Of a stretch of 64,000 nucleotides of DNA, positions 7,097-25,353 are shown in pieces (the stretch's first letter is position 1; each line of letters begins with the position of its first letter). The notes beneath the pieces were generated by a model, which saw nothing but the letters and a program-made list of their open reading frames with translations, made no database searches and was not told the origin of the DNA. Source of the DNA: Streptosporangiaceae bacterium (lineage in GTDB: Bacteria; Actinomycetota; Actinomycetes; Streptosporangiales; Streptosporangiaceae); assembly GCA_035532275.1 (NCBI GenBank), contig DATKRG010000203.1, positions 69 to 64,068 on the forward strand. The letters run 5' to 3'. The position numbers were made by a program, and so were the translations under genes.

Positions 7097-7106
7097 GAGC
7101 AAAGAG

Positions 7107-7793: not shown

Positions 7794-8052
7794 GTGGCCA
7801 TACGCTGCGGGCCCCGCCAGTGCACGGGACACTGCTGGTCGATGGTTCGGCCCGAATCGGGGGCGGTGACCGCGCTGGGGTCGGGGACGTTCTTCGCCCG
7901 GCGGGGTTAGCGGCGAACCAGATCTGGCGCGCTCCTGGCCTTCCGCGTATCGCTGGATTGTAGCGGCGCCCGTCGCTTTGCATGATCGGCCCGGCGTTCC
8001 CTGGTTGTTGGTGCGGTCACACGTTCTGCTGGTTTCCTCGGCAGATGGATGG

Positions 8053-8984: not shown

Positions 8985-9149
8985 GGACGTCTCCGATCTG
9001 TAGTCTCCGCAACGTCTTCTCTGACTCGTCTCTACTGTAGGGTACTCGCCGGAGTTCCGCGACAGGCCAGTTCCCAGCCAGCGCTCCGCACTCGCCCTGC
9101 CGCCGGGGAACTCCCAGCAGCGCAGCTCCAGTCCGAACAGCCATCCTCC

Positions 9150-9697
9150 GCGCTTCGCCCAGATCGGTAGGCGTATGGCTGCGGAATCCTGAGCACCGAA
9201 GGAAAGACGCGGTCGAACGCGTGGTTCGTGTGCGGCCACCCGAGCCCCATGCTCGCCAGTGACCGTCCGTGATAGCCGTCGGCCAGAGCCAGCCACGGAC
9301 CAGTGTGCTGAGGCCGGTTCAGCATCGCCAGCTTCATGGCCATCTCCACGGCCAGGCTGCCATGAAGAGTGAACCCGATCCGCTTGAGATCCCCCGGCGC
9401 CGACTCCGTCATGGCCTTGCTCAAGAGCAGAAGTGGAATGGAGTCGAAGTTGGACCTGAGGTGACTGAGCTGGCGGGCCTGCGCAAGAGCGGCTTCGACC
9501 ACTTCGGGAACCGAGGCCCCGATGTTGTTCGACCAGGCCATCGAAGTGCAGTCGATGTACTCGCTGCCCTTGGAGTCCCAGACAAGCGCGCCAGAGGCCC
9601 TGGTGATGACCAGGCCAGGCTCGCTGCCCGAAGACCACCCGCTGAGCAGCGCAGCCCTTCCGGCAGCCAGGTCATCTTCAGCATAGCTAGTTGGCAC
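9150..9697 (-). pseudogene. Class III (PLP) aminotransferase, 5' fragment only (3' half missing)
   Basis: GTG 9697 is preceded by GAGAGGA. LVITRASGALVWDSKGSEYIDCTSMAWSNNIGASVPEVVEAALAQARQL...ADGYHGRSLASMGLG...RIPQPYAYRS matches the first ~180 aa of the family. The sequence then diverges and stops at 9032, with no Lys/PLP region. Confidence 0.7.
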
Positions 9698-9779
9698 TGA
9701 AGATCCTCTCGTCACTATTTCCGTTTCCGCCAACCCTAGGTAGGTCGAAGACCAGGAAGAAGGACGAATCAGTGTCAGA

Positions 9780-9802
9780 ATTATGTCTGTAATCGACATA
9801 AT
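9780..9802. promoter_or_regulatory. Perfect interrupted dyad ATTATGTC-N7-GACATAAT in the LysR/aminotransferase divergent intergenic region (candidate LysR site)
   Basis: Arms at 9780-9787 and 9795-9802 are exact reverse complements (checked by hand). The dyad sits in an AT-richer 160-bp divergent promoter region. Confidence 0.4.
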
Positions 9803-9858
9803 GACGTAGCATGGACGTGGCATGCCCGCTGTCGTGTGCCGTGTCTGGTAGGAGCAGC

Positions 9859-10756
9859 CGTGCAGAACGTGACTCTCCGTCAGCTCGAGGCCTTCCTCGC
9901 CGTCGCAGAGGAACTCCACTTCGGCCGCGCCGCCGAGCGCCTGTCTGTCTCAGCACCCTGGATGAGTCACACAGTCCGCGATCTCGAGCGGGCGCTGCGC
10001 GTCAAGTTGCTGAGCCGCACCACGCGCACGGTCGAGATGACCCCGGCGGGCCAGGTGTTCGCCGGCCTCGCCAGCCAAATCCTCACCGAACTATCGTCGG
10101 CGATCAAGACAGTGCGCAGCATGAGCGCGACACCGCGCGGAACGCTGAAGCTGGGCTACACGATCGGGGCTGGCCTAGAGGTAGTACCAAGGCTGCTGCG
10201 CACCTACCTCGAAAGAGAACCCGATGCAGGTATCGAGACCGAGGAGTTCGACTTCACCGATCCCTCAGCCGGGCTGCGGGACAACCTCGTCAACGCCGCC
10301 GTCGTGCGACCGCCGCTCGGGCTGGCGGGCCTGGTGTCAGTGGAGCTTGCCACCGAGCGGCTCGTCGCCTCTCTACCAGAGGACCATCCGCTGGCGGGCC
10401 GGGAATCACTTGGCGTCGCGGACGTGCTGCCCGAGCCGATCATCGCCGCGCCCGTCTCCCCGGGCCCGTGGCGCGACTACTGGATACTCACCGACTACCG
10501 GTCAGGACCGGCGCCGGTAGTCGCCGAGGCGAGCACCCTGGACGCGGAAATGCATCTCGTCGCCAGGGGCGTTGGACTGAGCATCACGTCCGAAGCAGTC
10601 GGGCTCTGGTACAAGCGGCCAGGCGTGACATTCGTGCCGATTCTTGACCTGCCCCCATGCTCAGTGTCACTTGCCTGGTGGCCCCAAGACACCGGCCTGG
10701 TGGCCGAGCTGGCGGCCGTCGCCAACGAGGTCAGAGCAAGAATCGCCGAGACCTGA
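9859..10756 (+). CDS. LysR family transcriptional regulator
   Basis: VQNVTLRQLEAFLAVAEELHFGRAAERLSVS... (LysR HTH) followed by a substrate-binding domain. GTG 9859 lies within ORF 9836-10756. Confidence 0.9.
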
Positions 10757-10868
10757 CGCGTAGCGAGCGATACCAGACCACTCCCTCCTGTCAGAAGCTC
10801 CCGGCGCGGTCGTTAGCAGGTCGTGGCCACTGCTGCCCGGCGCATTCGCCTGGCCGCTGTCGGTGATG

Positions 10869-10941
10869 CCTGAAAACTGACCCTTTAGCAACGTCTGAAA
10901 GTTGACCCCCTGTGGTCACCGGGCGTGGCAGAAGGGGTCAG
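10869..10941. repeat. Cluster of CTGAAA-NN-TGACCC direct repeats plus an inverted GGGGTCAG copy at the jetD truncation point
   Basis: cctgaaaactgaccc (10869-10883) and tctgaaagttgaccc (10894-10908) match at 12 of 14 core positions. ggggtcag (10934-10941) is the inverted copy, 4 nt before the jetD stop codon. Confidence 0.3.
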
Positions 10942-10944
10942 TGA

Positions 10945-11427
10945 TTACTTTTGGATGAGTGGGCTGAGATCCGGCGCCTGCACCGGTCGCAGGGCCTTGG
11001 GATCAAGGCGGTCGCGCGGCATCGACTCAAGGCCCGAGCGGATGGCCAGTGCCCGGAGCACGAGGGTGGCGAGTGAACCGCCCGCAAGCAGTGCCTTGGT
11101 GTCTCCCGTGACCTGTTCGGCGAGCACCGGCAGCGGGATCGGGTTGCGCAGCGGTCCGCCGAGCATGACCAGGCAGTCATGCAGACCGGCGCCGTGCCCC
11201 TGCCGCAGGGCCGCGTCCAGCGTGACGAGCTCGATGGTGAGCCGTTTCACCGTCTGCGGCCGGTAGCTGCCGGTGATGCCGATGACCAGCCGCCGTTCGG
11301 CGTCGGTGGGCGAGTTCAGTCCGATCGAGCGGTCCAGCGCGCCGCCGGTCCGTTCCAGGTCGCGCCGGGCCGCGGCGAACAGCCGTTTCCAGCCCTCCCC
11401 GCGCAGCTCGGTCAGATCCCCAGCCAT
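10945..11427 (-). pseudogene. jetD: Wadjet JetD (TIGR02679-like), N-terminal ~160 codons only; C-terminal Toprim/nuclease half absent
   Basis: ATG 11427 lies 8 nt after the jetC stop. MAGDLTELRGEGWKRLFAAARRDLERTGGALDRSIGLNSPTDAERRLVIGITG... resembles the JetD N-terminal arm domain. The ORF stops at 10945. No continuation exists in any frame before the LysR gene end at 10756. Confidence 0.6.
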
Positions 11428-11434
11428 GGTGTCC

Positions 11435-14400
11435 TCACGCCGCTGCGGTGACCGTCCGCCGGGTGCTGGGCGAACCGAGCGCGGCGGACAGCTCGCCCGC
11501 TTCGTCGGCGAGGAGCTGTGCTCCATCCCACACCAGCAACAGCGCGCTGACGGTGTGCTCGAGGGGGGAGTGCGCCAGGTCGTAGTGCGCGGCGGCGCGG
11601 ACGGCAGCCTGGGTCGCCCACAGGTCGTAGCCGGTCATGAACAGGTCCAGATCGAACTGGGCGGCAAGGCCCATCAGTTCGCCGCGGCCAGTGTCGTCCA
11701 CCCCGGCGAACGCCTCGTCAAGCGCGAGCAGTCGCGGGGCGTGCGGATGCGCCGAGTTCAGCATCGCGTGCGCGGCGGCGAACAGCGGCAGGTGCAGTGA
11801 GACCGATTGCTCGCCGCCGGACAGCCGGCTGTGCCGGGAGCGGGTCAGCTTCTCCTCGGCGCCCCCAGGGCTGACCATCTGGAACACGAACTGCCGCCAG
11901 CGACGGTAGTCCAGCACCTGGGCCAGCAACTCTCGGTAGGGGAGTTCACGGTGCCGGGCACGAGCGGTCTTGATCTGCGCGGCGAAGTGGCCGCGCATCC
12001 GGGCGAGGGAGTCCGGGTTGAGCCGGGAGGCGTCGGCGTCCAGCAGCCCGCACACCGCTCGCTGTTCGTCGTCGAGCGCGTCCGCCAGCAGCCACCTCAC
12101 GCCGACCGTCTTGCCCGAGGACATCTTCCGGGACCGCATCTCGGTGTTCATCCGGCTGATCAGGTCCTTGGCGTCCACGGTCCGCTCGTGGATCTGCTGA
12201 GCGAGCCTGGCCAGCAGTGCGTCTTCGAGGATGCGCTGCTCGGAGTCGGTCAGCAGCAGTTGCTGGTCGCGACGAGCGGCCGCGATGCGCTCCGAGAAGG
12301 CGCCGACCGGGAGCGGGCCCTGTTCATCGGCGATGCGGACGACGATGACGCCGTCGGCACCGTCCCACTCGGGGTGGTAGTCCTGGCCGGCCGCGGCGAG
12401 CTGGGTCTGCAGATCCTCCAGCGCCCGGGTCAGCCGGGTGGTGGAGATCTTCAGCGACGTCTCGGTCGGTGTGAGGTCGCGGGTGACCTCGAGGATTGCC
12501 TCGTGCACGTCGGCTGCCGCCTGGGGCAGATCATCACCGGTCCAGTCCGCCTCCTGCGCGGGCCAGGCGAGACCCGGCGGGCATTTCAGCACGTCCAGCA
12601 GTTCCCGGGCGGCGAACGGCGCGAGACCGCGCGCGGTGGCCCGCTCCTCCGCCAAGGCGACGTCGAGGGCGCGCCTGCCGCTGGCGACCCGCTCGGCCGT
12701 GGCGCTGACAGCCTTGATGGCCTCGACCTCGGCGGCGCGGGCGGAATGCTCGGCCGACTGGGCGGCCGTGATGCCCCGCTCGGCCGTTTCGATCTGTGCC
12801 ATCACCTCGTTGGCCTCCTTGCCTACGGCGCCCCGCAGCGCAGCCAGCTTGGCGGCCTCCTCGGTGTGCCGGCGGCGGGCCTGGAGCTCGGTTTCGGCGC
12901 AGGCGCGCTCCTCGTCGGCGGCCTGTTCCAGCCGGCCCCGGGCGCCGGTGACGACGCCGCGCTGCTGTGCCTCCTCACGGCGGCGGCTGGTGAGGCTGGC
13001 GACGGCGGCCTCAAACCGCCGGGTGGCGGCCTCCACCCGGTCGGCCTGGTCCCATTCGATGGCGTGGTCGGCGGCGGCACGGCGCAGCGCCCGTTCGGTG
13101 ACGGTGCAGGCGGCCACCGACTCGTCGTAGCCGGACTGAGCGCCGTCCGCGCCCGCCCGGGCCGAGCGCAGCTCCCCGACGGCCTGGGAGTGCATGCGCA
13201 GCGCGGCGGCGATCGCGGCGGTGCGGGGGAGCGCGGCGCGCGCCTGCGCGAAGGCGGACAATGTGGCGGTCAGCCCGGTGAGCATCCGGTCGAGGCCGGT
13301 CAGCAGCTCCTCCAGCGCGGCGATCCGAGCCTCGCACTCGGCGAGGCGCGCGGCCCGGCGGCGGGCCCGGGCGGTGACTCCGATGTACTCGGCGTGGTCC
13401 TTGTGGTGCGCGCCGGCGGTGACACCGTGGGAGTAGCGGCCGTCGGCGCCGATCACGGCGGCAGCGGAGAACAACTCGCCATCCAGGGCGATGGAGGCCA
13501 GCACCGCGCCGATCCGCGTGGCAGGCACCGGGGTGTCATCCTCGGGCACCAGCACGCGGGCGAGGCTGGTGCCCGCCACCGGCGTGCCGGGGACCAGGTA
13601 GCCGTCGCTGTCCCCGGCGGTGGGCTCGTGGCCGTCCGGCGTGATCCAGGCATCGAGCATGCCGGTGGCTTCCAGTGCCGCTTCCAGCGCGGCGGCCCGC
13701 GTCTCACCGACGTCGCCGGCGAAGCGGACCAGCCGCCACAGCGGTGCGCCGCGGCGTCCCGCCCGGTCGGCAGCGCGTCCGGGGTGGGCCGGCGGCGCGT
13801 CGTCGCGCTGCGAGGCGATGCGGTCCCGCTCCTGCGCGACGCGCGCCCGTTCGGCCTGCGCGGTGGCGCGCTCGGCGCGCAGCCGCGCCTGCTCGTCACG
13901 GACGGACTGCTCGGCGGCGGCGGTCGCGCCGGCGAACACCGACTCGAGAGTGGCGGCATCCGGATCGCCGAACGCCTCGATGGTCATGCTGAGGCCCTCC
14001 GTCAGTTCCCGCATCGCCGTCTCGTCCAGCACATCGGCGTGGTTGGCCGCCCACCGTGTCAGTGCGGCCTGCGCGTCGGCGCGGGCCGCGGCCACCGTGT
14101 CGGCGGCGGCCTGTTCGGCCTGCTCGGCGGCGGTCACCGCCGCCAGCGCCCGGTCGAGCGCGAGCCTGGCCAGATCGCGGGCGTGCTCGGCCCTGCGGTG
14201 CGCCTCCAGCGCGGCCCGCACCGCGCGGACTGCTTCCAGCCGGGCGGTGACCCTGGCCCCGGCACGTTCGGCGAACCCGTCGGCCCCGGCGTCGGCGGGC
14301 TGCCAGCCGATCCCGGCCGCGGCGGCGTGATCGGCGAGTTCGGCCGCGGTGCGCGAGACCACCGACTCCAGGTCGGCGAGTAGCGCCGCGGCTTGCTCCA

Positions 14401-15490
14401 GGTCGGCGCGGGCACGGGCGGTCGCCGCACTGCGCCGGGCGAGTTCCGCGTCGGCCTCGGCGGCGTTCCGCTCGTTGGTGCGGACGAGCCGTTCAAGGTC
14501 GGCGAGCTGCTCGACCGCCTGGTAGGCGCTGCTGGACTTCAGCTGGTCGAGCCGTGCGCGCAAGCCGGCGAAAGCGTTCTCCGACTCCTCCCGGCGGGCC
14601 TGCGTCTGCACCTGCTCGGTTTCGGCGCTCGCCAGGGCCACGGTGTCGTTGGCGAGCTCGGTGCGTCGCTGCGCACTGGCGTCATGGCGGCGGGTGAGCG
14701 CGTCGGCGGCCGACCGGGCGTGGGTGCGCAGATAGGTGGTGTAGGAGGCGAGGAAGGTGCGGGTGGCCTCGTCGGCGGCAGTCAGCCCCTCCAGCGCGAT
14801 AGCGACCGCCTCCATGTCGTCGAACGAGCGGGCCGCCTCGGCGATCAGGTCGTCGTCGACCGGGCGCAGCCCGTCGGTGAGCGTGTCCGACAACTTCGCC
14901 GGGTCGAGGTTCTTGGCCAGCTGCGGCCGCCGCAGCGTCAGGATCAGGGTGAGCAGCTGTTCGTAGCGTTCCCGGCCGAGGCCGAACAACCGCTGGTCGA
15001 TGGCGGCCCGGTAATCGGTGGGGGAGGCGTGCAGGCTCGCCTCCCCGATCTCCTCGGCGAGCTGCTTGCGGGTCATGGGCCGGTCGTCGCCGGTGATGAG
15101 CGAGAAGTCCTCGCCGACCCGGCCGTCGGCGACGAAGTGCCAGCGGACCGGGGTGTCGCGGTGCTTCTGTGCGTGCAGGCCGATGCCGATGGTGACCGCC
15201 TCGCCAGTGTCGCGATGCCGCAGCTCCAGCCACACATAGCCGACGGCGTTCTCGCCGCCGCGGAACAGGAGGTTGGCCTTCATGGTCCGGTCCTCGGCGG
15301 CGAACGGGTTCAGCCGCTTCGGGTCGATCCGGCCGTCCAGCACGAACGGGAACAGAACCTCAAGAGCCTTGGTCTTCCCGGAGCCGTTCGGGCCGCGCAG
15401 GATCAGCCAGCCACCGGCGAAGCAGAACTCCTCGTCCCGGTAGTCCCACATGTTGATGATTCCGGCCCGGGCGGGTTGGAAACGTGTCAC
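11435..15490 (-). CDS. jetC: Wadjet JetC, SMC-like ABC ATPase (TIGR02680-like)
   Basis: ~1,350 aa. N-terminal Walker A LRGPNGSGKTKALE. A long Ala/Arg/Glu-rich coiled-coil middle. C-terminal LSGGEQSVSLHLPLFAAA (signature) and LLALDEAFAGVD (Walker B). GTG 15490 is preceded by GAAGGAAGG at 6 nt (alternative start 15562). Confidence 0.85.
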   Translation of the reverse strand: MTRFQPARAGIINMWDYRDEEFCFAGGWLILRGPNGSGKTKALEVLFPFVLDGRIDPKRLNPFAAEDRTMKANLLFRGGENAVGYVWLELRHRDTGEAVTIGIGLHAQKHRDTPVRWHFVADGRVGEDFSLITGDDRPMTRKQLAEEIGEASLHASPTDYRAAIDQRLFGLGRERYEQLLTLILTLRRPQLAKNLDPAKLSDTLTDGLRPVDDDLIAEAARSFDDMEAVAIALEGLTAADEATRTFLASYTTYLRTHARSAADALTRRHDASAQRRTELANDTVALASAETEQVQTQARREESENAFAGLRARLDQLKSSSAYQAVEQLADLERLVRTNERNAAEADAELARRSAATARARADLEQAAALLADLESVVSRTAAELADHAAAAGIGWQPADAGADGFAERAGARVTARLEAVRAVRAALEAHRRAEHARDLARLALDRALAAVTAAEQAEQAAADTVAAARADAQAALTRWAANHADVLDETAMRELTEGLSMTIEAFGDPDAATLESVFAGATAAAEQSVRDEQARLRAERATAQAERARVAQERDRIASQRDDAPPAHPGRAADRAGRRGAPLWRLVRFAGDVGETRAAALEAALEATGMLDAWITPDGHEPTAGDSDGYLVPGTPVAGTSLARVLVPEDDTPVPATRIGAVLASIALDGELFSAAAVIGADGRYSHGVTAGAHHKDHAEYIGVTARARRRAARLAECEARIAALEELLTGLDRMLTGLTATLSAFAQARAALPRTAAIAAALRMHSQAVGELRSARAGADGAQSGYDESVAACTVTERALRRAAADHAIEWDQADRVEAATRRFEAAVASLTSRRREEAQQRGVVTGARGRLEQAADEERACAETELQARRRHTEEAAKLAALRGAVGKEANEVMAQIETAERGITAAQSAEHSARAAEVEAIKAVSATAERVASGRRALDVALAEERATARGLAPFAARELLDVLKCPPGLAWPAQEADWTGDDLPQAAADVHEAILEVTRDLTPTETSLKISTTRLTRALEDLQTQLAAAGQDYHPEWDGADGVIVVRIADEQGPLPVGAFSERIAAARRDQQLLLTDSEQRILEDALLARLAQQIHERTVDAKDLISRMNTEMRSRKMSSGKTVGVRWLLADALDDEQRAVCGLLDADASRLNPDSLARMRGHFAAQIKTARARHRELPYRELLAQVLDYRRWRQFVFQMVSPGGAEEKLTRSRHSRLSGGEQSVSLHLPLFAAAHAMLNSAHPHAPRLLALDEAFAGVDDTGRGELMGLAAQFDLDLFMTGYDLWATQAAVRAAAHYDLAHSPLEHTVSALLLVWDGAQLLADEAGELSAALGSPSTRRTVTAAA

Positions 15491-15551: not shown

Positions 15552-16937
15552 TCAGGACGCACCCGGCGGCGGGTTCTTGATCTGCGCGGTGACGCTGCGG
15601 TAACGGGCCAGCAGCGGCATCACCAGCACGCCGCCGTCCACCCTTGCCACCAGGCCCAGCGAGGCGAGCAACGCGACCGCCTCGGCCGCCAGACGGCCCG
15701 GGTCGGCGGCCTGCTTCTCCGCCATGCCGGCGCCGAAGTCCTCGACCAGCTTCCGCAGCTCGGCGCGCAGCCACACGTCGCCGAGGAACGGGTAGGCGGC
15801 CTCGGCGGTGCCGTCCTGCGCGTCTGATCCGGAATCGGCTCCGGTCCCCCACTCGCTGATCTCCGGCCGCCATGCCCCTCCGGCGAGCAAGTCGGCGACG
15901 CGGCCCCGGTCCGGCAGGGCCGCGTCGATCCGCTGGGCGGCTTCGGCGAGCCGTTCCGCGGCGGTGGCCGCGGGTATCCGTTCAATCCTGGAACTGTGGT
16001 AGCGCAGGTAGCCGGCAATCCGCGCGCACAGCAGCAGCGCGGCCTGCGCGACGGTGCCGGTCGACGGGAACGTCACGTCGGTGAGCCGCTGCCCGGCGTT
16101 GACCAGCGCCACGCCTTCGGCGCGCCGCTCCAGATCCAGGCCGGTGAGCCGCCCGGCATCCTCGGCGAGGCTGGCCGAGCGGAGCTGGCCGCGCAGGTCC
16201 TCGTCGACGTCGGCATAGTAGACGACCGGCTGCTCCACGACGAGCCGCCGGGCACGCCGCGCGTTCACGCGCCGCCGCGCCTCCCGCCCCTGGGCCGGTG
16301 CGGTACCGCCGCCGGGGCTGTCCAGCAGCTCGGTGACCGAGTCCAGATGCTGCAGCACCCGGCTCGGCGCGTAGATGGCGCCGACCACCTCGCGGTCGAT
16401 GTCGTAAAGCGCCTCGGCGCGTTGCGGGTCGTTGGCCCACTCGATGGCCGAGCCGTCGGCCATCCGCAGGGCGCCGCGCACCTCCAGCCAGGTGACGGCG
16501 TCCACGAACGCGTCCCGGTCGGGTTTGCGGCCGGTGTCCATGCCCAGGCCGTCGATGCGCGCGGCGTCGGCGGCGACCGCGTCGGCCAGCTCGCTGAGCG
16601 CGATCTGAGTGCCGGAGCGGCCCACCGCGGACATTGTCAGCACCAGGTAGGCGTAGCGGCGGCGGTCGAATGGCCGGCCCGCGCGGGTGAGGGCCGGGCG
16701 GGTGCCGTCCAGCGTGTCCTGCACCCGGCGCAGCCGGATGGTGTCGCCGCTGGCCAGGAGCGTGTACCCGAGGACCTCGCCGAAGTCGGTCCGCAGTTGC
16801 CTGACCCACTTGCGCACGAGCGGAAGCGTCGAGGCGTCCGGATATGACGCGGTGATCAGCGGGTGGCGCAGCACCAGCCGCGCCGCCTTCTGGTATTCGG
16901 CCAGCTCGAGCGCGTCGATGCCGGCGGCGACCCTCAT
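15552..16937 (-). CDS. jetB: Wadjet JetB (TIGR02678/DUF2398-like)
   Basis: ATG 16937 overlaps the jetA stop in ATGA. MRVAAGIDALELAEYQKAARLVLRHPLITASYPD...LVRKWVRQLRTDF... 461 aa. Position between jetA and jetC. The remainder of ORF 15552-17453 is an out-of-frame overlap with jetA. Confidence 0.8.
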   Translation of the reverse strand: MRVAAGIDALELAEYQKAARLVLRHPLITASYPDASTLPLVRKWVRQLRTDFGEVLGYTLLASGDTIRLRRVQDTLDGTRPALTRAGRPFDRRRYAYLVLTMSAVGRSGTQIALSELADAVAADAARIDGLGMDTGRKPDRDAFVDAVTWLEVRGALRMADGSAIEWANDPQRAEALYDIDREVVGAIYAPSRVLQHLDSVTELLDSPGGGTAPAQGREARRRVNARRARRLVVEQPVVYYADVDEDLRGQLRSASLAEDAGRLTGLDLERRAEGVALVNAGQRLTDVTFPSTGTVAQAALLLCARIAGYLRYHSSRIERIPAATAAERLAEAAQRIDAALPDRGRVADLLAGGAWRPEISEWGTGADSGSDAQDGTAEAAYPFLGDVWLRAELRKLVEDFGAGMAEKQAADPGRLAAEAVALLASLGLVARVDGGVLVMPLLARYRSVTAQIKNPPPGAS

Positions 16938-18469
16938 CCGGAGACCTCCACGGCCAGGCCGTCCAGATGCAGCCGGCCGCGGACCGTGTGCACGGTCGTG
17001 GACCCAGGGGCGGGCCGCAACGTGAGCCGCACCCCGTGCGCGGACCCGCTCGCCGTCCGGCTGACCGGGACCCGCGCGGACAACGCCACGTCCAGCAGGC
17101 TGAGCAGCGCCTGAGTCTCCGGCTCGTCCAGCACCCGGCCGTAGACGCCGTCGCCGGCCAGCGCCGCCGCCGCGGTGCGGCGCTGCGCGGTCGCCTTCAG
17201 CTGCTCGGCGCGCAGCCGCTGCTTCTCCTCGTCGTTGCGCTGGATCCGGCCGGGGCCGCGCAGCGCCTGGGCCTTTCCGTTGCGCACCAGCGTCCGGGAC
17301 AGCTCCACCGGCTCGGCTTCCCACCACGACAACCGGCTCGGGACCGCGTCGGGGTCCTCGTGCGCGGCTGAGACGTGCCGGGGTGCGCCGAGGCCGAACA
17401 CCGCCTGGAACAGCGCATGGGAGTCGTCGTCGGTCGGGCAGCCGGTGAACCATCGCGCCAGATGGCGCAGTTGGCTCTCCCGGCTCACCCCGCCGCGGCG
17501 CGACTCGGTGACCCGGCGCAGCAGCGCCGTGACGTTAGCGATCGCGGTGACCGTGGCGTCCTGCAGGCGTTCGGCCTCGCTGTGGCGGCCGCCGCCGAAC
17601 CACTGCACCAGGCCGCCCCAGCGCGCCCGCCAGTCCGCGACCCGTTCCTCGGCGCCGCGGAACAGCGACTCGTCGGCCTCCGCGGCGAGCCGGGCGAGGC
17701 GCTCCGCGCCGGCGGCATCCACCTCGGCGACCGCGGCGGCCAGGAGCGGCGCGAACCGGGTCAGCTCGGAATGGAACTCCCGCATGTGGGTGAGCAGCGC
17801 GTCCTTGTGCGCGAGGAACACCTCTGGCCGGGTGTCGTTGGTGCGCGCCAGATCGCCCAGCATCAGGTAGAAGCGGGCGGCGCGCTGCGCCATGTCGGCG
17901 AGTACGCCGTCCAGCCGGGACAGCTTCCGGTACACCTCGGCGGCGTCCCCGGACCGCGCCGCCTCGGCGAGCGATCGCAGGTCGGCGAGGATGTCGGGGA
18001 ACACGAGGCGGGACAGCTGGGCGTCTTCCACGCTGGCCGTCAGCACCTCTTCGACGGCCCGGAAGGCCCGGTATCCCGCCTGGGTGAACTGGTAGACGTA
18101 GTGCCGGTTGCGGTACTCGGCGAGGTTCGCGGCGCGGGTGCCGTCGTAGGAACGGTCCAGCACCTGCCATTCGGCGAGTGCGTCCAGCAGCGCCTGCACG
18201 TCGCCTCCGGCCGCCTCCGGGTGCTGCACGGCCAGTTCGCCGAGCACCTCGCTGGCGTCGGACGCGTGCATCAGCACCTGGTAGTTGGCTCGGGCCCGGT
18301 CGAAGGCGCGGAGCAGCCACAGGTACTCGTGGCGTTTCTCAGCGGCGGCGAAGTGGAACAGCCGGAGCCGGTCATCGAGGGTGAACGCGTCGATGCCGAA
18401 CGCAGCATCCTCTGCCGCCGTGTCGCGAGGAACAGAGGCGGTGCGAACGGGGGGATGACTACCGGTCAC
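16934..18469 (-). CDS. jetA: Wadjet JetA (TIGR02677/DUF2397-like)
   Basis: 511 aa, ...FHFAAAEKRHEYLWLLRAFDRARANYQVL...YRNRHYVYQFTQAGYRAFRAVEEVL... First gene of a four-gene set with the canonical order and sizes. Confidence 0.8.
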   Translation of the reverse strand: MTGSHPPVRTASVPRDTAAEDAAFGIDAFTLDDRLRLFHFAAAEKRHEYLWLLRAFDRARANYQVLMHASDASEVLGELAVQHPEAAGGDVQALLDALAEWQVLDRSYDGTRAANLAEYRNRHYVYQFTQAGYRAFRAVEEVLTASVEDAQLSRLVFPDILADLRSLAEAARSGDAAEVYRKLSRLDGVLADMAQRAARFYLMLGDLARTNDTRPEVFLAHKDALLTHMREFHSELTRFAPLLAAAVAEVDAAGAERLARLAAEADESLFRGAEERVADWRARWGGLVQWFGGGRHSEAERLQDATVTAIANVTALLRRVTESRRGGVSRESQLRHLARWFTGCPTDDDSHALFQAVFGLGAPRHVSAAHEDPDAVPSRLSWWEAEPVELSRTLVRNGKAQALRGPGRIQRNDEEKQRLRAEQLKATAQRRTAAAALAGDGVYGRVLDEPETQALLSLLDVALSARVPVSRTASGSAHGVRLTLRPAPGSTTVHTVRGRLHLDGLAVEVSG

Positions 18470-18523: not shown

Positions 18524-21500
18524 TCAGTCTGCCGGATCGCCGCGGCGGATGTGAAAAGAAACGCCGTGCCGGGGCTCGCTGTCCGGTCCGCATCGTGCAA
18601 GGCCGTGCAGCGATGTCAGCACCGTCAGCGCGGCACCGCGGCTCAGGTCCTCGTGGTGGCGTTCGTTGCGCGGGGTGCGCAGGCAGCCGTAGCAGGATGT
18701 CTCCAGGCCGCAGTCACACGACGCTACCCGCCGCAGCGCGGTGGCGATCACCGTGTCGAGCGCGGCGGCGATCCGCAGCACGCTGCCCGCCCCGCCCGGG
18801 ACAGTGTCGAACAGCACCAGGCCGCTGCGGCCGTCCGCACCGGAATGCACCACCCCGTCGATGTCGCCGCGGCTGATCTCCAGCCCGTCGGCGGCGCCCT
18901 CCAGCGCCGCGTACAGGAGGGAGTGCCACTGCGCCCCGGTGTCCAGGCCGGGCGCGTCGAGCCGCAGCCGCAGGATGTCCGTCTCATAGGTGTGCGCGAG
19001 CGAGCGCCAGCGCAGCGGCCCCGTGCACGGCTTGCCGCGCAGCGGGCTGACGTGCGACTTGGGGGACCGGCCGTGGTTGGGGGCGCCCCAGCCGCACCAG
19101 TCGCAGATCAAGAACCCGGAGCCGCCCGGCCCTTCGGCCAGCGACACCAGCCGGCCGCGCGCACCGGAGTGGCACCACGCCAGCGCGCCGGTGTTGGCCT
19201 CCCAGCGGGACTCGGCGAGCTCCTCGCCAAGCGACACCACGTGCACGGCACCGTTCCAGGACCGCTGCGGCGGCACGGTGCTGGGCTTGCCGGTGCGCGG
19301 GTCGGCGACGAAGCCAAACTCCGGCACGCAGTATTCGCGGACCGGGCCGTCGGCGGGCCGCCCGCACGCGGAGCAGGCCGGCTCCAGGTCGGCGCCGCCC
19401 TCCCGGTAGTGCCGGCAGCCCCGGCACACCGTGTAGCTGCGGGTGATCAGCTCCCGGCCGGGAAGACGGTAGATGCCGCCCGAACGCCACAGCACCCCAC
19501 CAGCGATCAGCTCGGCGCCCGGCGCGTATTCGTGGATGGCCACCGACAGGTCCCGGTTCAGCTCCAGCCGGGCCCCGACACCGCTGTCGCAGTGCGCGGT
19601 GCGCAGCTCGACGGTGTCCACCGGAAACCCGTACTTCGGCAGGACGTTCCGGTTGGCCAGGTAGCCGATCAGCGGCCGACGCGTGATGGTGGCGATGCTG
19701 CGCTCGAACCGGGCCGCCAGGTCGCTGCGCCGGGACTCGAACGCCTCCGTGCGGCGCTCCTCGAACGTCACCACATCGTGGGCCAGTTCGGCACGGACCT
19801 GCTCCAGCAGTCCGCACAACCGCTCCACCCAGCTGCCGTCGTCCAGCCCGATCTGCGGCCAGGCCGACTCCGGGAGCACGGCGCGCAGCGCCGTGCCGAC
19901 CTCGGCGGGCACCGGGGTGAGGTAGCCGCGGACCGCGTCGCAGGGCGGATCGCCGCATCCGGCAGGCAGGCTCTGCTGGCCCGGGGGGACGACCCCCCGG
20001 AACCCTCCGAGGAAAAAATCCCCGGCGGTCTTCCACTCCCGGCCGCCGTTGTCCTTGCCGTCCCGGAAGAACGCCGCGAGCGCCACCGAATGCGCGTGCC
20101 GCCGGTCGATGCGCGGGTTTCCGAGCGGCACGTAGGGGGCACGGACCTGCCCGGTCAGCATCGACTCCGGCGCCTGATAACGGGACAGGTCGTGGGAGCG
20201 GCGCTGAGCGTAGGTGAGGACCAGCGCGGCGGTGCCGCTGCGACGTCCCGCCCGCCCGGCCCGCTGGATGTAGTTGGCGGTGCTGGGTGGCATGTTCCGC
20301 AGCAGCACCGCCGAGAGCGACCCGACGTCGACGCCCAGCTCGAAGGTGGTGGAGCAGCTCAGCACGTTGACCTCGCCGGCGAGGAACCGCTGCTGGATGT
20401 CGGCTGCCTCCAGGCCGGTCCACTGCGCGGTGTGCTCACGGGCCACCAGCGGCACCGGCGCTGTCCGCTGGTACAGGGCGCGGTAATGGCCGTCGTCGTC
20501 GGCACGGTCGGAGGCCAGCTCACCGGTGCAGCCCAGTGTCGGGCACACCCCGCGAAGCGCGGCCGTGGTGACTCGTCGGCACAGCGAGCACCGCCACAGG
20601 CCGTCGCCAGGGGACAGCGTGAGCCAGGTGTGATCGATCTGGTGCACCTGGCCCAGCCTGGGCAGCGCCGCCGCGTGCAGCCAGCCGTCCCTGGCAGCGG
20701 TGAGCGCCCGCCAGCACCCGGCCAGCACGTCGCGTGCGTCGGCCCCGGACGCGGGCTCGCCGAGGGCGGCCAGCAGCCGGCGCAGGTAGTCGAGCCGCTT
20801 GTTGACGCCACGGGTGGGCAGCCAGCTCAGCACCTTGAGCTTCGCCTCCGCACCGTCACCGCGGACGTAGATCGGTCCGCGCCGCGGCTCGAACATCTCG
20901 TCGGCCGGGTCGACCTCCTCCGGCATCGTGAGCGCGCCCTGCAGCCGTACCGTGCGGAGCAGTTCGGTGAGCAGCGTCGCGCACTCCTGTGCGGACAAGC
21001 CGAGATCGAGCAGCGGGGCGGGTGGCCGCCACGACGGCTCCACGCCCAGCCCGACCTGCAGCAGCCCGAGGCCTTCCAGGGACTGGCGTTCGTCGAGGGC
21101 GACCAGCTCGCGCAGCACCCAGCGGGCGGCCTCCCGGCGGCGGCCCTGCCGCGACTCCCGCCGGGAGAACACCCCGGCACGGCCGGCCGCGGCCGCGGTC
21201 TCCTCGATCAGGTCGTCCACCGTGGCGTAGGTGTCGTGGGCGGTGGCCCGCGCCAGGCCGTCCAGGATCAGCCGTCGCTGCTGCACGAGCGCGTGACTGG
21301 ACTCCAGGTAAGGGGCGAAGAACGCGGCGGCCTGCCGACTGTCGCTGAACGCGAGGAGCTTCCGGCCGCCTCCGGGCCGGTCCGCGAACTCCTCATCCGG
21401 GGGCAATGCCTGGTAGAGCGCGGTGGCCAGCACCGCCGCGGCCGCCTCATTGCCGCTCTCGAAGAGCCGCACCAGCCCGGCGCCGCGCGCGCCGCAGGCC

Positions 21501-23350
21501 AGGCACCCGTTCGGGGCGCTGGACTTGGCCGCCAGCCGCCGCACCCGCCGCAGCCCGGCGGCGGAACATCCGCACGGCGCCGTCCCCGCCGCGGCCGCGG
21601 TCACCGCGTGCAGGGCTCCGCACCGTCCGCACAGCGACGCGTCCTTGGCGGTCGCCGCCGCGGCCTGCTCCAGGATCTCGTCGTCCTCATCCACCGTCTC
21701 GGCCGGCGCGTCGAGCAGCAGCCAGGCACGGCGGTCGGGCCGCGCCGCGCGCGAGGTGAAGCGCTCACCGCCGGAGTCGCGCTCCACCGAGCCAGCCAGG
21801 TGCACCGCGCCGCACCGCTTGCAGCATCCGAACTCAAACACGGCGCCGCAGCAGTCCGGGCAGATCTCGTGCCGGGCCAGCGACACGTGCGGGCCGCCCG
21901 GCGTCAGGCAGGTGAACGCGCCCTCGGTGGCCCGGGCGAACAGGTGGTAACGGGCGGACAGCACCGGGGCGCCGGCGGCGTCGCGGATCTTCGCGCCCAC
22001 CGCGACCAGTGCGGCGAGCGCCGCCTCCGCGCGGGGACCATCCGCGTCGGCGAACACCTCAGCGGCCAGGTCGGCGAACGGCCGGGGCGAGCGCGCGAGC
22101 AGGGCACGCAGCCGCGCCATCGTCTGCTCGTGGGCGAGGATCAGCGCGGCGTCGCGACCACCAAGACCGGCGGCCGCCGGATCGTCCGCGGCGCGGCTCA
22201 GCAGCGCCGCCCCTGGATCGGCCGAGGTGCCCAGGCCGAGGTAGTCGGCGGGGCCGAGCGGCCCCCACAAAGGTCCGGCCGGGATGTCCACCCGCTGCGC
22301 GCCGACCAGATCCTGGCGTGCCGGGTCGCCGTCCACCCACTCAAAGGGCGCGTCGAACAACTTGGCGGCGAAGTCCATCACCGCCTGCGGATGGTCGCCG
22401 ACGGTGGCGCTCGTGGCGATCGCCTGGAACGTCGCGTCGTCCCGGCCGCGGCCGACGCGCTCCCGCAGCCGGCGCAGCAGCATGCCGACCTCTTCGGCCT
22501 TCGCCCCGTCGTAGACGTGCGCCTCGTCCAGCACGACGAACCGCCAGTGCCCGCCGTGCTTGCCCTCGAACAGTTCCATGTCCGCCGGGCGCAGCAACAG
22601 GTACTCCAGCATCGCGTAGTTGGTGAGCAGCAGGTGCGGCGGGCTGTCGCGCATCTCCTGGCGGCTGAGCAGTTCGTTCGGCAGCCGTGGCTCGCCCGGG
22701 TTCAGCGACTCGAACAGCGACGCGCCCTCGCCGGCGCGCTCCGGAGTGTCCCCGGTGTAGCGGCCGAAGGTGATCTGGGGCGCGTCGGCCAGCAGCCGGC
22801 GCAGCCGGCGGAGCTGATCGTTGGCGAGCGCGTTCATCGGATACAGCAGCAGCGCCCGCACCCCGGGTCCGAGCGTGCCCGCCTGGTGCTCAGCGGTCAG
22901 CGCCGACAGCACCGGCAGCAGGAAGCTCTCGGTCTTCCCTGACCCGGTGCCGGTGGCCACCACCAGGTTCCGGCCCGCGACGGCCTTCCGCAGTGCCTGC
23001 TCCTGATGGCAGTAAAGGGGCCGGTCGAGGGGCAGCGCCACACCGCCCAAGCGGGCGAACGCGGGATCCAGCACGCCCTCGCCGATCAGGTCACGCAGGC
23101 TCGCCCCGGTCCGGTAGGGCGGCGTCGCCTCAAGCAGCGGCCCCTTCGTCAGCAGCGGGCTGGCGGCGATGCAGTCGGCGAGCGCGACCGCAAGCCCGCG
23201 GTCACGGACCGGCAACAGCGACCGCAGGTAGCGCCGGTAGGTGGCGCTCAGCGCAGTGCTGGTGGCGATCGCGTCCACGGTGCAAGCCGTTCCCGAGCGA
23301 AAGGAAATGCCTCCTGGGACTGTACAGCGCCATGAGGGGCACATGCGCAC
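18524..23350 (-). CDS. druE: Very large DEAD/DEAH-box helicase with C-terminal DUF1998 (MrfA-type Zn) module; Druantia DruE-like
   Basis: Motif I VATGTGSGKTESF, motif II FVVLDEAHVY, helicase-C ELGVDVGSLSAVLL and motif VI YIQRAGRAGRR. C-terminus SCDCGLETSCYGCLRTPRNERHHEDLSRGAA. Several CxxC pairs are inserted between and within the RecA lobes. The start is uncertain (GTG 23350, ATG 23344 or GTG 23278). Confidence 0.75.
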   Translation of the reverse strand: MRMCPSWRCTVPGGISFRSGTACTVDAIATSTALSATYRRYLRSLLPVRDRGLAVALADCIAASPLLTKGPLLEATPPYRTGASLRDLIGEGVLDPAFARLGGVALPLDRPLYCHQEQALRKAVAGRNLVVATGTGSGKTESFLLPVLSALTAEHQAGTLGPGVRALLLYPMNALANDQLRRLRRLLADAPQITFGRYTGDTPERAGEGASLFESLNPGEPRLPNELLSRQEMRDSPPHLLLTNYAMLEYLLLRPADMELFEGKHGGHWRFVVLDEAHVYDGAKAEEVGMLLRRLRERVGRGRDDATFQAIATSATVGDHPQAVMDFAAKLFDAPFEWVDGDPARQDLVGAQRVDIPAGPLWGPLGPADYLGLGTSADPGAALLSRAADDPAAAGLGGRDAALILAHEQTMARLRALLARSPRPFADLAAEVFADADGPRAEAALAALVAVGAKIRDAAGAPVLSARYHLFARATEGAFTCLTPGGPHVSLARHEICPDCCGAVFEFGCCKRCGAVHLAGSVERDSGGERFTSRAARPDRRAWLLLDAPAETVDEDDEILEQAAAATAKDASLCGRCGALHAVTAAAAGTAPCGCSAAGLRRVRRLAAKSSAPNGCLACGARGAGLVRLFESGNEAAAAVLATALYQALPPDEEFADRPGGGRKLLAFSDSRQAAAFFAPYLESSHALVQQRRLILDGLARATAHDTYATVDDLIEETAAAAGRAGVFSRRESRQGRRREAARWVLRELVALDERQSLEGLGLLQVGLGVEPSWRPPAPLLDLGLSAQECATLLTELLRTVRLQGALTMPEEVDPADEMFEPRRGPIYVRGDGAEAKLKVLSWLPTRGVNKRLDYLRRLLAALGEPASGADARDVLAGCWRALTAARDGWLHAAALPRLGQVHQIDHTWLTLSPGDGLWRCSLCRRVTTAALRGVCPTLGCTGELASDRADDDGHYRALYQRTAPVPLVAREHTAQWTGLEAADIQQRFLAGEVNVLSCSTTFELGVDVGSLSAVLLRNMPPSTANYIQRAGRAGRRSGTAALVLTYAQRRSHDLSRYQAPESMLTGQVRAPYVPLGNPRIDRRHAHSVALAAFFRDGKDNGGREWKTAGDFFLGGFRGVVPPGQQSLPAGCGDPPCDAVRGYLTPVPAEVGTALRAVLPESAWPQIGLDDGSWVERLCGLLEQVRAELAHDVVTFEERRTEAFESRRSDLAARFERSIATITRRPLIGYLANRNVLPKYGFPVDTVELRTAHCDSGVGARLELNRDLSVAIHEYAPGAELIAGGVLWRSGGIYRLPGRELITRSYTVCRGCRHYREGGADLEPACSACGRPADGPVREYCVPEFGFVADPRTGKPSTVPPQRSWNGAVHVVSLGEELAESRWEANTGALAWCHSGARGRLVSLAEGPGGSGFLICDWCGWGAPNHGRSPKSHVSPLRGKPCTGPLRWRSLAHTYETDILRLRLDAPGLDTGAQWHSLLYAALEGAADGLEISRGDIDGVVHSGADGRSGLVLFDTVPGGAGSVLRIAAALDTVIATALRRVASCDCGLETSCYGCLRTPRNERHHEDLSRGAALTVLTSLHGLARCGPDSEPRHGVSFHIRRGDPAD

Positions 23351-25246: not shown

Positions 25247-25353
25247 GGTCGCCCCCTTCACCGCTCGCCAGCGTCCCATGGCCCGCGGGTGAAGCGTAGC
25301 CACCGGCGCTGGGTCAGTGGGCCGTTGACCGCAGCCGGCGGGCCTGGTAGCCA

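What the first reader, a model, noticed from the sequence alone, without database searches (positions are those of the whole stretch)
10869..11427. Wadjet nuclease subunit JetD is reduced to its first ~160 codons, with a repeat cluster at the break
Seen: the jetD ORF stops at 10945. The 190 bp before the convergent LysR gene end (10756) contain no continuation in any frame. From memory, full-length JetD/MksG is roughly 400 aa, and the Toprim-type cleavage domain is in the missing C-terminal half. Just downstream of the premature stop (on the + strand, at and below 10941) lie two CTGAAA-NN-TGACCC direct repeats and an inverted GGGGTCAG. These could be a scar of the rearrangement, such as a transposon end or recombination site. 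Either the system is dead for DNA cleavage, or JetABC is retained for a cleavage-independent role.
Basis: partly seen in the sequence, partly recalled or inferred. Interest (0 to 1): 0.65.

Follow-up and report, generated by a model that had tools for sequence, protein, structure and literature searches.

The report
Decayed jetD beside an IS21 scar
The DNA-cutting gene of a plasmid-defence system (type II Wadjet) is a dead remnant left by two deletions, one of which fused it to the leftover end of an IS21-family jumping gene; this is ordinary gene decay, although related soil actinobacteria have lost the same gene repeatedly.

Summary
ORF 10945-11427 (-) is a 160-aa remnant of JetD, the last gene of a type II Wadjet operon (jetA2/B2/C2/D2). 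Closest relatives (about 85-89% JetC identity over the full protein, 90-92% in its C-terminal 500 aa) encode a 411-aa JetD with DUF3323 and DUF2399 (Toprim half).

The window keeps reference codons 1-94 and 167-212. A 216-bp in-frame deletion separates them, and 20 foreign codons and a stop follow. Everything from codon 213 on, including all of DUF2399, is missing.

The "repeat cluster" is the left terminal inverted repeat of an IS21-family insertion sequence. Window 10858-11019 is 86-96% identical to the left end of a ~3.56-kb IstA/IstB element in 33 metagenome contigs. The two CTGAAANNTGACCC copies are its L1/L2 transposase-binding repeats. The inverted GGGGTCAG closes a hairpin over the istA start.

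IS and jetD meet at a 12-nt microhomology (11008-11019), a deletion junction. The jetD tail is antisense istA.

Four independent assemblies carry the same scar. jetA, jetB and jetC are intact. Among 80 species-level relatives, 11-15 lack jetD, with different breakpoints.

Verdict: an IS-associated pseudogene. Low-to-moderate interest.

The parts
18524..23350 (-). DruE-like (Druantia-type) DEAD/Helicase_C/MZB helicase directly upstream of jetA; context, not part of Wadjet proper
   Evidence: PADLOC DruE3 at E 1e-169. Pfam families on the called gene are DEAD, YjiV_N, Helicase_C and MZB. It sits upstream of jetA in many relatives.
16934..18469 (-). jetA (type II, DUF2397/TIGR02677), intact, 511 aa
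   Evidence: PF09660 at E 3e-133 covering profile 1-481 of 483. TIGR02677 scores 232 bits against a 166-bit cut-off. PADLOC JetA2 at E 3e-167.
15552..16937 (-). jetB (type II, DUF2398/TIGR02678), intact, 461 aa
   Evidence: PF09661 at E 6e-68. PADLOC JetB2 at E 4e-161 covering profile 3-441 of 462. Gene call as in L001.
11435..15490 (-). jetC (type II SMC-like ATPase, TIGR02680), intact, 1351 aa (the longest ORF reaches 15562)
   Evidence: TIGR02680 scores 728 bits against a 463-bit cut-off, covering profile 1-1354 of 1356. PADLOC JetC2 scores 1297 bits. Walker A GPNGSGKT, LSGGEQ and Walker B LLALDE are all present.
10945..11427 (-). jetD remnant ORF, 160 aa
   Evidence: The identical protein is called on four independent metagenome contigs.
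11146..11427 (-). jetD segment A, equal to codons 1-94 of the intact 411-aa JetD
   Evidence: tblastn and blastn against L009, L010, L011, L017, L018 and L019.
11142..11153 (-). Junction of the 216-bp (72-codon) in-frame internal deletion; reference codons 95-166 are lost
   Evidence: Alignments from the two sides overlap here. In L011, position 11796 is joined to 12012. Microhomology is only about 3-4 nt.
11008..11145 (-). jetD segment B, equal to reference codons 167-212 (still within DUF3323)
11008..11019 (.). 12-nt microhomology GCGGTCGCGCGG, shared by jetD (codons PRDR) and istA (codons AVAR); the jetD|IS21 deletion junction
   Evidence: A three-way alignment shows IS homology ending at 11019 and jetD homology starting at 11008.
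10945..11007 (-). 20 foreign codons plus TAA; this tail is the antisense strand of the istA 5' end
   Evidence: No jetD homology below 11008. The + strand of the same bases matches IstA residues 2-26.
10858..11019 (+). IS21-family insertion-sequence remnant: the left end, 162 bp of about 3,560 bp
   Evidence: 86-96% identity to the left end of the element in 33 metagenome contigs. In most alignments homology begins at 10858, at TGTCGG. The complete copy L097 8218-11775 has a 5-bp target duplication CCATA.
10858..10912 (+). Left terminal inverted repeat (L-TIR), starting 5'-TG
   Evidence: Inverted-repeat arms of the complete copies in L097 and L132. Alignment of 16 copies.
10870..10883 (+). 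L1 direct repeat CTGAAAACTGACCC (IstA-binding site)
   Evidence: IS21 TIRs consist of two direct repeats, L1 and L2, and both are required for integration (PMC10122671).
10895..10908 (+). L2 direct repeat CTGAAAGTTGACCC (IstA-binding site); start-to-start spacing from L1 is 25 nt
10876..10942 (+). Imperfect hairpin pairing L1 with the stretch just before and into the istA GTG; it contains the 'inverted GGGGTCAG'
   Evidence: The + strand RNA folds at -36.6 kcal/mol, z -3.7, with 0 of 200 shuffles as good. The - strand gives z -0.66. The hairpin is conserved in 16 IS copies, with no compensatory changes.
10941..11019 (+). istA 5' remnant: GTG start and about 26 codons, with one extra T in the run 10949-10952 causing a frameshift
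   Evidence: tblastn matches IstA residues 2-26 at 84% identity. The alignment of copies shows the extra T.
10761..10857 (.). 97-bp spacer of unknown origin between the conserved LysR block and the IS terminus
   Evidence: No match in jetD relatives, LysR-orthologue loci or the rest of the window.
9860..10756 (+). Convergent LysR-family regulator, intact; context
   Evidence: PF00126 and PF03466. Orthologues at 85-96% identity. Homology to their loci ends at 10760-10765.

Best explanation
The ORF is a jetD pseudogene at the 3' end of an otherwise intact type II Wadjet (JetABCD / EptABCD-type) operon. The repeat cluster next to it is the left end of an IS21-family insertion sequence.

Shown:
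- jetD keeps only codons 1-94 and 167-212 of 411. It has lost 72 codons inside the N-terminal DUF3323 domain and the whole C-terminal DUF2399 (Toprim) domain.
- At 11008-11019 the jetD sequence passes, through a 12-nt stretch common to both parents, into the antisense strand of the first ~26 codons of an IS21-family istA gene.
- From there to 10858 lies the element's left terminal inverted repeat, with its two IstA-binding direct repeats and a hairpin over the istA start.
- The rest of the IS (about 3.4 kb: most of istA, a middle ORF, istB and the right end) is absent from the window.

Inferred:
- An IS21-family element inserted downstream of jetD, with istA pointing towards the 3' end of jetD.
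- A single microhomology-mediated deletion then removed everything between istA codon ~26 and jetD codon 213. This killed both the IS and the nuclease gene.
- A separate 216-bp in-frame deletion hit the remnant before or after that event.

Consequence (inferred from what is established for Wadjet): without the Toprim nuclease, JetABC can still load on and scan DNA, but the system cannot cleave plasmids.
For: Operon identity. JetA2, JetB2 and JetC2 match at full length. JetD2 matches only over profile positions 11-99.

Intact comparators. Six close relatives (85-89% JetC identity over the full protein) have a 411-aa JetD with DUF3323 at 35-238 and DUF2399 at 262-409.

Breakpoints. These come from tblastn and blastn maps and from alignments.

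IS identity.
In 89 of them TG lies exactly 12 nt upstream of the first repeat. In 44 an IstA-type N-terminus follows.
- 33 contigs are 86-96% identical to window 10858-11019.
- Complete copies encode IstA (NF033546, 196 bits against a 160-bit cut-off) and IstB (NF038214, 280 bits against 200; PF01695 at E 1e-73). They have about 55-nt TIRs and a 5-bp target duplication.
- Published IS21 ends have two direct repeats, L1 and L2, and 5-bp duplications (PMC10122671).
- Plasmid annotations name the homologues 'IS21 family transposase istA'.

Not an artefact. The same 160-aa ORF and the same scar occur in four independently assembled contigs. One of them is a distinguishable strain, 99.74% identical over 19 kb with a 92.5% tract in the helicase.

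Role of JetD as the Toprim nuclease effector: 10.1101/2025.03.10.642339.
Against: The order of events is not observed. No relative or strain with a complete IS next to an intact jetD was found, and the IS right end is gone, so no target duplication can be checked in the window.

No relative shares the downstream flank. The pre-deletion arrangement therefore cannot be reconstructed.

The remnant shows no excess of non-synonymous change. Its dN/dS against L009 is 0.47, compared with 0.52 for L009 against L010 over the same codons. The sequence itself gives no independent sign of relaxed selection beyond the deletions.

Only 64 kb (117 kb on the longest contig) of this genome was seen. A second jetD elsewhere is not excluded.
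Confidence: 0.85

Rival explanations
1. The operon arrived already truncated. A horizontally transferred DruE-like/jetABCD fragment ending inside jetD was joined to a resident IS21 copy by illegitimate (microhomology) recombination. On this reading jetD was never complete in this genome.
For: The flanks of the cluster differ in every relative, even among the closest (90-92% JetC C-terminal identity), which suggests the cassette moves between contexts. The junction would look identical under this scenario. The neighbouring LysR/aminotransferase block is itself an isolated 1.6-kb fragment.
Against: It needs a resident IS that was also truncated at exactly the same point. One in-situ deletion explains both truncations at once. 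No evidence for the other boundary of a transferred fragment was found.
Confidence: 0.15
2. JetABC (possibly together with the adjacent DruE-like helicase) is retained because it has a cleavage-independent role. That role could be MksBEF-like DNA organisation or plasmid interference without cutting. On this reading the loss of jetD is tolerated or even favoured.
For: jetA, jetB and jetC are full length with intact ATPase motifs. Of 80 species-level loci, 11-15 lack a co-oriented jetD, at different breakpoints, while jetABC stay in single open frames. Only 5 loci show frame breaks in jetA, jetB or jetC, although those genes make up about 85% of the operon length. dN/dS of jetABC is 0.14-0.47 in pairs where both members lack jetD.
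Against: dN/dS is the same in pairs with intact jetD, and no clade with a demonstrably shared, old loss was found, so the losses may simply be recent. jetD is the terminal gene next to a variable, IS-rich flank, so an edge effect explains the bias without any selection. Intact and jetD-less loci are interleaved in the JetC tree.
Confidence: 0.2
3. The 160-aa protein is a genuine stand-alone DUF3323 protein, the normal short form in this clade.
For: Several database hits are short proteins carrying PF11796 only.
Against: Those short hits are contig fragments or independent wrecks with other breakpoints. The nearest relatives have a 411-aa JetD. The window protein lacks 72 residues from the middle of the domain, and its last 20 residues are antisense istA.
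Confidence: 0.02
4. The repeats are a host regulatory element (an operator or bidirectional terminator for LysR and jetD) rather than mobile-element DNA.
For: They lie between two convergent genes and form a stable hairpin on the LysR-sense strand.
Against: LysR-orthologue loci lose homology at 10760-10765 and lack the motif. Relatives of the Wadjet locus lack it too. The whole 162-bp block, including an istA start, recurs at the ends of IstA/IstB elements in unrelated contexts. The consensus terminator and promoter scans and Rfam find nothing.
Confidence: 0.02
5. The structure is an assembly chimera or artefact.
For: The sources are metagenome-assembled, and repeats such as IS ends often break or mis-join assemblies. 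Many hits lie at contig ends.
Against: The same junctions were assembled in four contigs from four samples or runs, including a 117-kb contig and a Logan assembly. One contig (L004) differs only outside the scar.
Confidence: 0.01

Closest known systems
Type II Wadjet (JetABCD-II; EptABCD naming in mycobacteria; Neobacillus vireti JET-II reconstituted in vitro)
   Same: Same four-gene order and the same families: DUF2397, DUF2398, TIGR02680 SMC-like ATPase and TIGR02679. Relatives have the full JetD with DUF3323 and the DUF2399/Toprim half (paper 10.1101/2025.03.10.642339).
   Different: Here the nuclease subunit is a remnant without its Toprim half. A DruE-like helicase gene sits directly upstream.
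IS21-family insertion sequences (IS21, IS5376 and relatives)
   Same: 5'-TG terminus, a TIR built from two direct repeats (L1/L2), istA followed by istB, and a 5-bp target duplication in a complete copy.
   Different: Only 162 bp of the left end survive in the window. The full element carries an extra 327-aa alanine-rich ORF between istA and istB. Its IstA is only 56-58% identical to the best-matching annotated IS21-family istA genes on plasmids.
MksBEF-type condensin-like complexes that lack the MksG/JetD nuclease (for example Pseudomonas aeruginosa MksBEF)
   Same: An SMC-like, kleisin and KITE trio without a nuclease gene (paper 10.1101/2025.03.10.642339 introduction).
   Different: Here the absence is a recent, visible decay event. 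It is not a conserved architecture, because the nearest relatives keep jetD.
Wadjet loss in a laboratory strain that gained plasmid uptake (spontaneous jetABCD deletion in Clostridium cellulovorans)
   Same: Loss of Wadjet function by spontaneous chromosomal deletion. [quoted passage not shown]
   Different: That case removes the whole operon and was selected in the laboratory. Here only jetD is destroyed, in a natural soil population, and the phenotype is unknown.

Membership tests
Type II Wadjet (JetABCD-II) | JetA of the DUF2397/TIGR02677 family | tested here: met
   PF09660 at E 3e-133. TIGR02677 scores above its cut-off. PADLOC JetA2.
Type II Wadjet (JetABCD-II) | JetB of the DUF2398/TIGR02678 family | tested here: met
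   PF09661 at E 6e-68. TIGR02678 scores 142 bits against a 125-bit cut-off. PADLOC JetB2.
Type II Wadjet (JetABCD-II) | JetC SMC-like ATPase (TIGR02680) with Walker A, signature and Walker B motifs | tested here: met
   TIGR02680 scores 728 bits at full length. The motifs are present.
Type II Wadjet (JetABCD-II) | JetD with an N-terminal DUF3323 and a C-terminal DUF2399/Toprim nuclease domain | tested here: not met
   Only 140 of 411 JetD codons remain, all from DUF3323. There is no DUF2399 anywhere in the window. The locus is therefore a degraded member, not a complete system.
Type II Wadjet (JetABCD-II) | ATP-dependent cleavage or restriction of circular plasmids | not testable with these tools
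   This needs biochemistry or transformation assays.
IS21 family insertion sequence | Terminal inverted repeat beginning 5'-TG and built from two direct repeats (L1/L2) | tested here: met
   The window has TGTCGG at 10858, L1 at 10870 and L2 at 10895. The same layout is seen in 89 of 119 contigs. The definition is taken from PMC10122671.
IS21 family insertion sequence | IstA DDE transposase | tested here: inconclusive
   The window keeps only IstA residues 2-26, with a frameshift. In complete copies of the same element IstA passes NF033546, at 196 bits against a 160-bit cut-off.
IS21 family insertion sequence | IstB AAA+ helper ATPase | tested here: not met
   It is absent from the window. It is present in the complete copy, where NF038214 scores 280 bits against a 200-bit cut-off. 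The window holds a dead fragment, not an element.
IS21 family insertion sequence | Short (5-bp) target-site duplication | tested here: inconclusive
   CCATA flanks the complete copy in L097. This cannot be tested in the window because the right end is deleted.
MksBEF-like nuclease-free SMC system | Nuclease-less architecture conserved across the clade | tested here: not met
   Six of the closest relatives keep an intact jetD. jetD-less loci are scattered across the JetC tree and have different breakpoints.

The most novel reading that the evidence does not exclude
In this actinobacterial lineage of type II Wadjet, often linked to a DruE-like helicase, JetABC may be kept repeatedly after loss of the JetD nuclease because it has a cleavage-independent function. 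That function could be DNA organisation or non-nucleolytic interference with plasmids, possibly in concert with the helicase. On this reading jetD loss is an adaptive switch rather than the first step of decay.
Probability: 0.15. Interest if true: 0.6.

Novelty: new member of a known kind. Interest (0 to 1): 0.3.

Why it matters
The finding is a clean, base-resolved example of how a defence system loses its effector. An IS21-family element and the nuclease gene were removed together by one deletion across a 12-nt microhomology, leaving the sensor genes intact.

On its own that is ordinary genome decay. Its wider value lies in the survey it prompted. About one in six species-level relatives has independently lost jetD while keeping jetABC. 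If selection rather than an edge effect drives this, it bears on how bacteria trade plasmid immunity against plasmid acquisition. It also bears on whether Wadjet motors have uses without their nuclease.

The work also shows that CTGAAANNTGACCC x2 is a widely conserved IS21-end signature, which is useful for annotating IS scars.

Tried and rejected
Rfam scan of 10500-11500 at E up to 1: nothing.

Consensus promoter and terminator scan of 10600-11500: nothing.

Synteny search for what 'replaced' jetD. No relative shares any sequence or gene with window 7000-11007. The downstream flanks of relatives also differ from one another, with L012 and L016 as the only pair sharing a flank. LysR-orthologue loci share only 9142-10765 with the window.

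The 254-bp stretch 10757-11010 has no match in relatives' loci or elsewhere in the window. It was explained only after the metagenome pattern scan.

dN/dS (Nei-Gojobori) on jetA, jetB, jetC and the jetD remnant. It does not distinguish jetD-less pairs from intact pairs, so it is uninformative about selection after the loss.

Test for a shared ancestral jetD loss in the Frankia loci L027, L035 and L040, and in L012/L016. Apart from the aminotransferase flank that L012 and L016 share, the flanks differ or the tree interleaves an intact locus. No old jetD-less clade could be established.

Search for a consistent replacement effector downstream of jetC in jetD-less loci. The neighbours are unrelated genes: Uma2, an aminotransferase, a solute-binding protein, an AAA ATPase and a DDE transposase.

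PDB sequence search with an intact JetD-II: no meaningful hit.

Rejected readings: a stand-alone short JetD as the normal form, an operator or terminator reading of the repeats, and an assembly artefact.

Full report
**What is at the coordinates.** On the minus strand the window carries a co-directional gene row:
- a DruE-like helicase (18524-23350);
- jetA (16934-18469; DUF2397/TIGR02677);
- jetB (15552-16937; DUF2398/TIGR02678);
- jetC (11435-15490; TIGR02680);
- seven bases after the jetC stop, a 160-aa ORF (10945-11427).

PADLOC assigns all four Jet proteins to the type II Wadjet models JetA2, JetB2, JetC2 and JetD2. JetA, JetB and JetC match their profiles end to end. The 160-aa protein matches JetD2 only over profile positions 11-99 of 423, and Pfam finds only PF11796 (DUF3323). 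JetC has Walker A (GPNGSGKT), the LSGGEQ signature and Walker B (LLALDE). A LysR-family gene (9860-10756, + strand) converges on the ORF.

**Is jetD really truncated?** A scan of one genome per GTDB species with the C-terminal 500 aa of JetC returned 80 loci. The closest are uncultured Streptosporangiaceae-like soil MAGs at 90-92% identity in that segment, or 85-89% over the full protein. In six of them (L009, L010, L011, L017, L018, L019) the gene after jetC is a JetD of about 411 aa. It has DUF3323 at 35-238 and DUF2399 at 262-409.

A tblastn search with the L011 protein finds just two pieces in the whole window. DNA alignments place them exactly:
- 11146-11427 equals codons 1-94;
- 11008-11145 equals codons 167-212.

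Between the two pieces 216 bp (72 codons) are missing in frame, with only about 3-4 nt of microhomology. After codon 212 all homology to jetD stops. The last 20 codons and the TAA (10945-11007) are unrelated to JetD.

The whole Toprim-bearing half is therefore gone, and so is a third of the N-terminal domain. According to the type II Wadjet reconstitution paper, JetD is the TOPRIM nuclease effector and JetABC is the DNA sensor (10.1101/2025.03.10.642339).

**Not an artefact.** The identical 160-aa protein, with the same repeats behind it, is called on four contigs from four assemblies (three ENA, one Logan), including a 117-kb contig. L001 is a distinguishable strain. It is 99.74% identical over 19 kb, with a 92.5% tract inside the helicase. 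The scar is therefore inherited within a population.

**What the repeat cluster is.** The two CTGAAANNTGACCC copies (10870, 10895) are the only ones in the window, against 0.11 expected. They are absent from all Wadjet relatives. Homology to LysR-orthologue loci ends at 10760-10765. That left 10761-11007 as orphan DNA.

By my own estimate a pattern with 24 specified bases should hit less than once by chance in a collection of this size. Most hits show the window's 39-nt layout, many lie at contig ends, and they come from very different biomes.
- In 89 of the 119, TG lies exactly 12 nt upstream of the first repeat.
- In 44, an IstA-type N-terminus (…DEWAEIRRL…) follows.
- 33 contigs are 86-96% identical to window 10858-11019, and in most of them homology starts at 10858 (TGTCGGTGATGC…).

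Complete copies are L097 8218-11775 (3,558 bp, flanked by the 5-bp duplication CCATA) and L132 794-4371. They have about 55-nt imperfect terminal inverted repeats, each with two sub-repeats. They encode:
- IstA, with HTH, rve and Mu-transposase C domains; NF033546 'IS21 family transposase' scores 196 bits against a 160-bit cut-off;
- an unassigned 327-aa alanine-rich ORF;
- IstB, with PF01695 at E 1e-73 and NF038214 at 280 bits against a 200-bit cut-off.

The literature describes exactly this end structure. IS21 TIRs are made of two direct repeats, L1/L2 and R1/R2; both are required for integration, each is bound by IstA HTH domains, and insertions carry 5-bp target duplications (PMC10122671). 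The best plasmid homologues of this IstA, at 56-58% identity, are annotated 'IS21 family transposase istA'.

The cluster is therefore the left TIR of an IS21-family element. The 'inverted GGGGTCAG' is the 3' arm of a hairpin (10876-10942) that pairs L1 with the stretch just before and into the istA GTG (10941-10943).
- The hairpin is strong only on the istA-sense strand: -36.6 kcal/mol, z -3.7, 0 of 200 shuffles as good, against z -0.66 for the other strand.
- It is conserved in 16 copies, though without compensatory changes.
- That it shields the istA start from read-through transcripts is my inference, by analogy with other insertion sequences. It was not tested.

**The junction.** IS homology runs to 11019 and jetD homology begins at 11008. 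The shared 12 nt, GCGGTCGCGCGG, are present with 0-3 mismatches in both parents. In the IS they encode A-V-A-R of IstA. In jetD they are the antisense of P-R-D-R.

This is the signature of a microhomology-mediated deletion or illegitimate recombination. The window retains IstA residues 2-26, with an extra T causing a frameshift. No other part of the IS is present. The foreign tail of the jetD ORF is simply the antisense strand of the istA start, and its TAA lies opposite istA codons 2-3.

**Most likely history (inferred).** An IS21-family element inserted downstream of jetD with istA pointing towards it. One deletion from istA codon ~26 to jetD codon 213 then removed about 3.4 kb of IS, any DNA in between, and the 3' 0.6 kb of jetD. 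The 216-bp in-frame deletion is a separate event of unknown order.

An alternative cannot be excluded: the operon fragment was acquired already truncated and was joined to a resident IS. No relative shares either flank.

**Consequence.** With the Toprim domain gone, and no other JetD-like sequence in the 64 kb, the system should be unable to cleave DNA. This follows from established knowledge of Wadjet. Loss of Wadjet is known to raise plasmid uptake greatly in other bacteria (PMC12287153). Whether JetABC still does something useful is open.

**Wider pattern.** The status of jetD across the 80 species-level loci is:

| jetD status | Loci |
|---|---|
| intact | 62 |
| cut by a contig end | 2 |
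| uninformative | 1 |
| no co-oriented jetD, with at least 1.25 kb of downstream sequence | 11 |
| no co-oriented jetD in shorter flanks | 4 |

The breakpoints differ:
- the window;
- L005, a metagenome contig outside the 80, which keeps codons 14-149 plus 266-291, followed by a recombinase fragment and transposases;
- L012 (first 33 codons);
- L016 (about 22 codons);
- L014 (a 69-bp internal piece);
- L013, L020, L024, L035, L040, L046 and L047 (nothing left);
- L008 (a divergent jetD in inverted orientation).

The genes that follow jetC in these loci are unrelated to one another. In a JetC tree the jetD-less loci are interleaved with intact ones. jetA, jetB and jetC stay in single open frames in all of them, whereas only 5 of the 80 loci show frame breaks in jetA, jetB or jetC.

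dN/dS of jetABC is 0.14-0.47 whether or not jetD is present, so it does not show whether selection continued after the loss. jetD is the terminal gene next to a variable, IS-rich flank. An edge effect is therefore the economical explanation, and selection for plasmid uptake or a nuclease-independent JetABC role remains possible.

**Verdict.** This is a degraded member of a known system next to a dead fragment of a known IS family. It is of low-to-moderate interest. The recurrent jetD loss is the only aspect that might repay further work.

Noticed in passing
window 18524-23350 (-) and 23360-25510 (-): A 1608-aa DruE-like helicase (PADLOC DruE3 at E 1e-169; Pfam DEAD, YjiV_N, Helicase_C, MZB) lies 54 bp upstream of jetA, in the same orientation. 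The same adjacency is seen in many actinobacterial relatives, both with and without jetD. The 716-aa ORF upstream of it has no Pfam or PADLOC match. It could be an uncharacterised Druantia-like partner.
   Followed up: partly
window 9032-9823 (-), breakpoint near 9142: The class-III aminotransferase gene divergent from LysR is also truncated. It is 263 aa here against 434-443 aa in orthologous loci, and it matches Pfam profile positions 10-166 of 403. The amino-acid permease that follows it in relatives is missing. The conserved LysR/aminotransferase block is an isolated 1.6-kb fragment (9142-10765) between unrelated flanks.
   Followed up: partly
L005, L008, L012, L013, L014, L016, L020, L024, L035, L040, L046, L047 (downstream of jetC): jetD has been lost or degraded independently, at different breakpoints, in 11-15 of 80 species-level relatives, and also in the metagenome contig L005. 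jetA, jetB and jetC remain open in all of them. Mobile-element genes (a recombinase fragment, DDE transposases, Uma2) are often next to the break.
   Followed up: partly
L004 769-904; L123 1315-2973; L185; L122 (equivalent to window 10868|10869): In one co-occurring variant (L004) the outer 11 nt of the IS21 TIR remnant and the LysR flank are replaced by the end of an ISL3-family element (…CACGAAATACGGGCCAGATC). The same kind of end abuts the L1 repeat at the same position in three different IS21 subfamilies. This suggests an ISL3 element that targets IS21 ends.
   Followed up: partly
L097 9618-10601 (+); compare L164 7280-8965 (-): The full-length IS21-family element carries a 327-aa alanine-rich ORF between istA and istB with no Pfam match. 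In L164 the corresponding region appears fused to istB.
   Followed up: no
L096-L214 (metagenome contigs): The double motif CTGAAANNTGACCC, with start-to-start spacing of mostly 23-25 nt and TG 12 nt upstream, is conserved at IS21-family ends from very different biomes and GC contents. It often lies at contig ends. About 20 other hits are simple CTGAAACCTGACCC-type tandem repeats unrelated to IS21.
   Followed up: partly
L008 7199-8389 (-): Directly after jetC there is a full-length but divergent jetD (47% identity to L011 JetD) in the opposite orientation. It may be an inversion or the end of a second, convergent Wadjet operon.
   Followed up: no
L001 1-1460, equivalent to window 20010-21466: Two strains that are 99.7% identical across 19 kb are only 92.5% identical over 1.46 kb inside the DruE-like helicase gene. 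This is a likely recombination tract in a defence gene.
   Followed up: no
L012 11628-12321 and L016 3209-3901: A Uma2-family (PF05685) gene lies between the jetC end and the aminotransferase flank in L012. A 94% identical copy sits several kb upstream in L016. The two loci otherwise share the same jetD-less flank.
   Followed up: no
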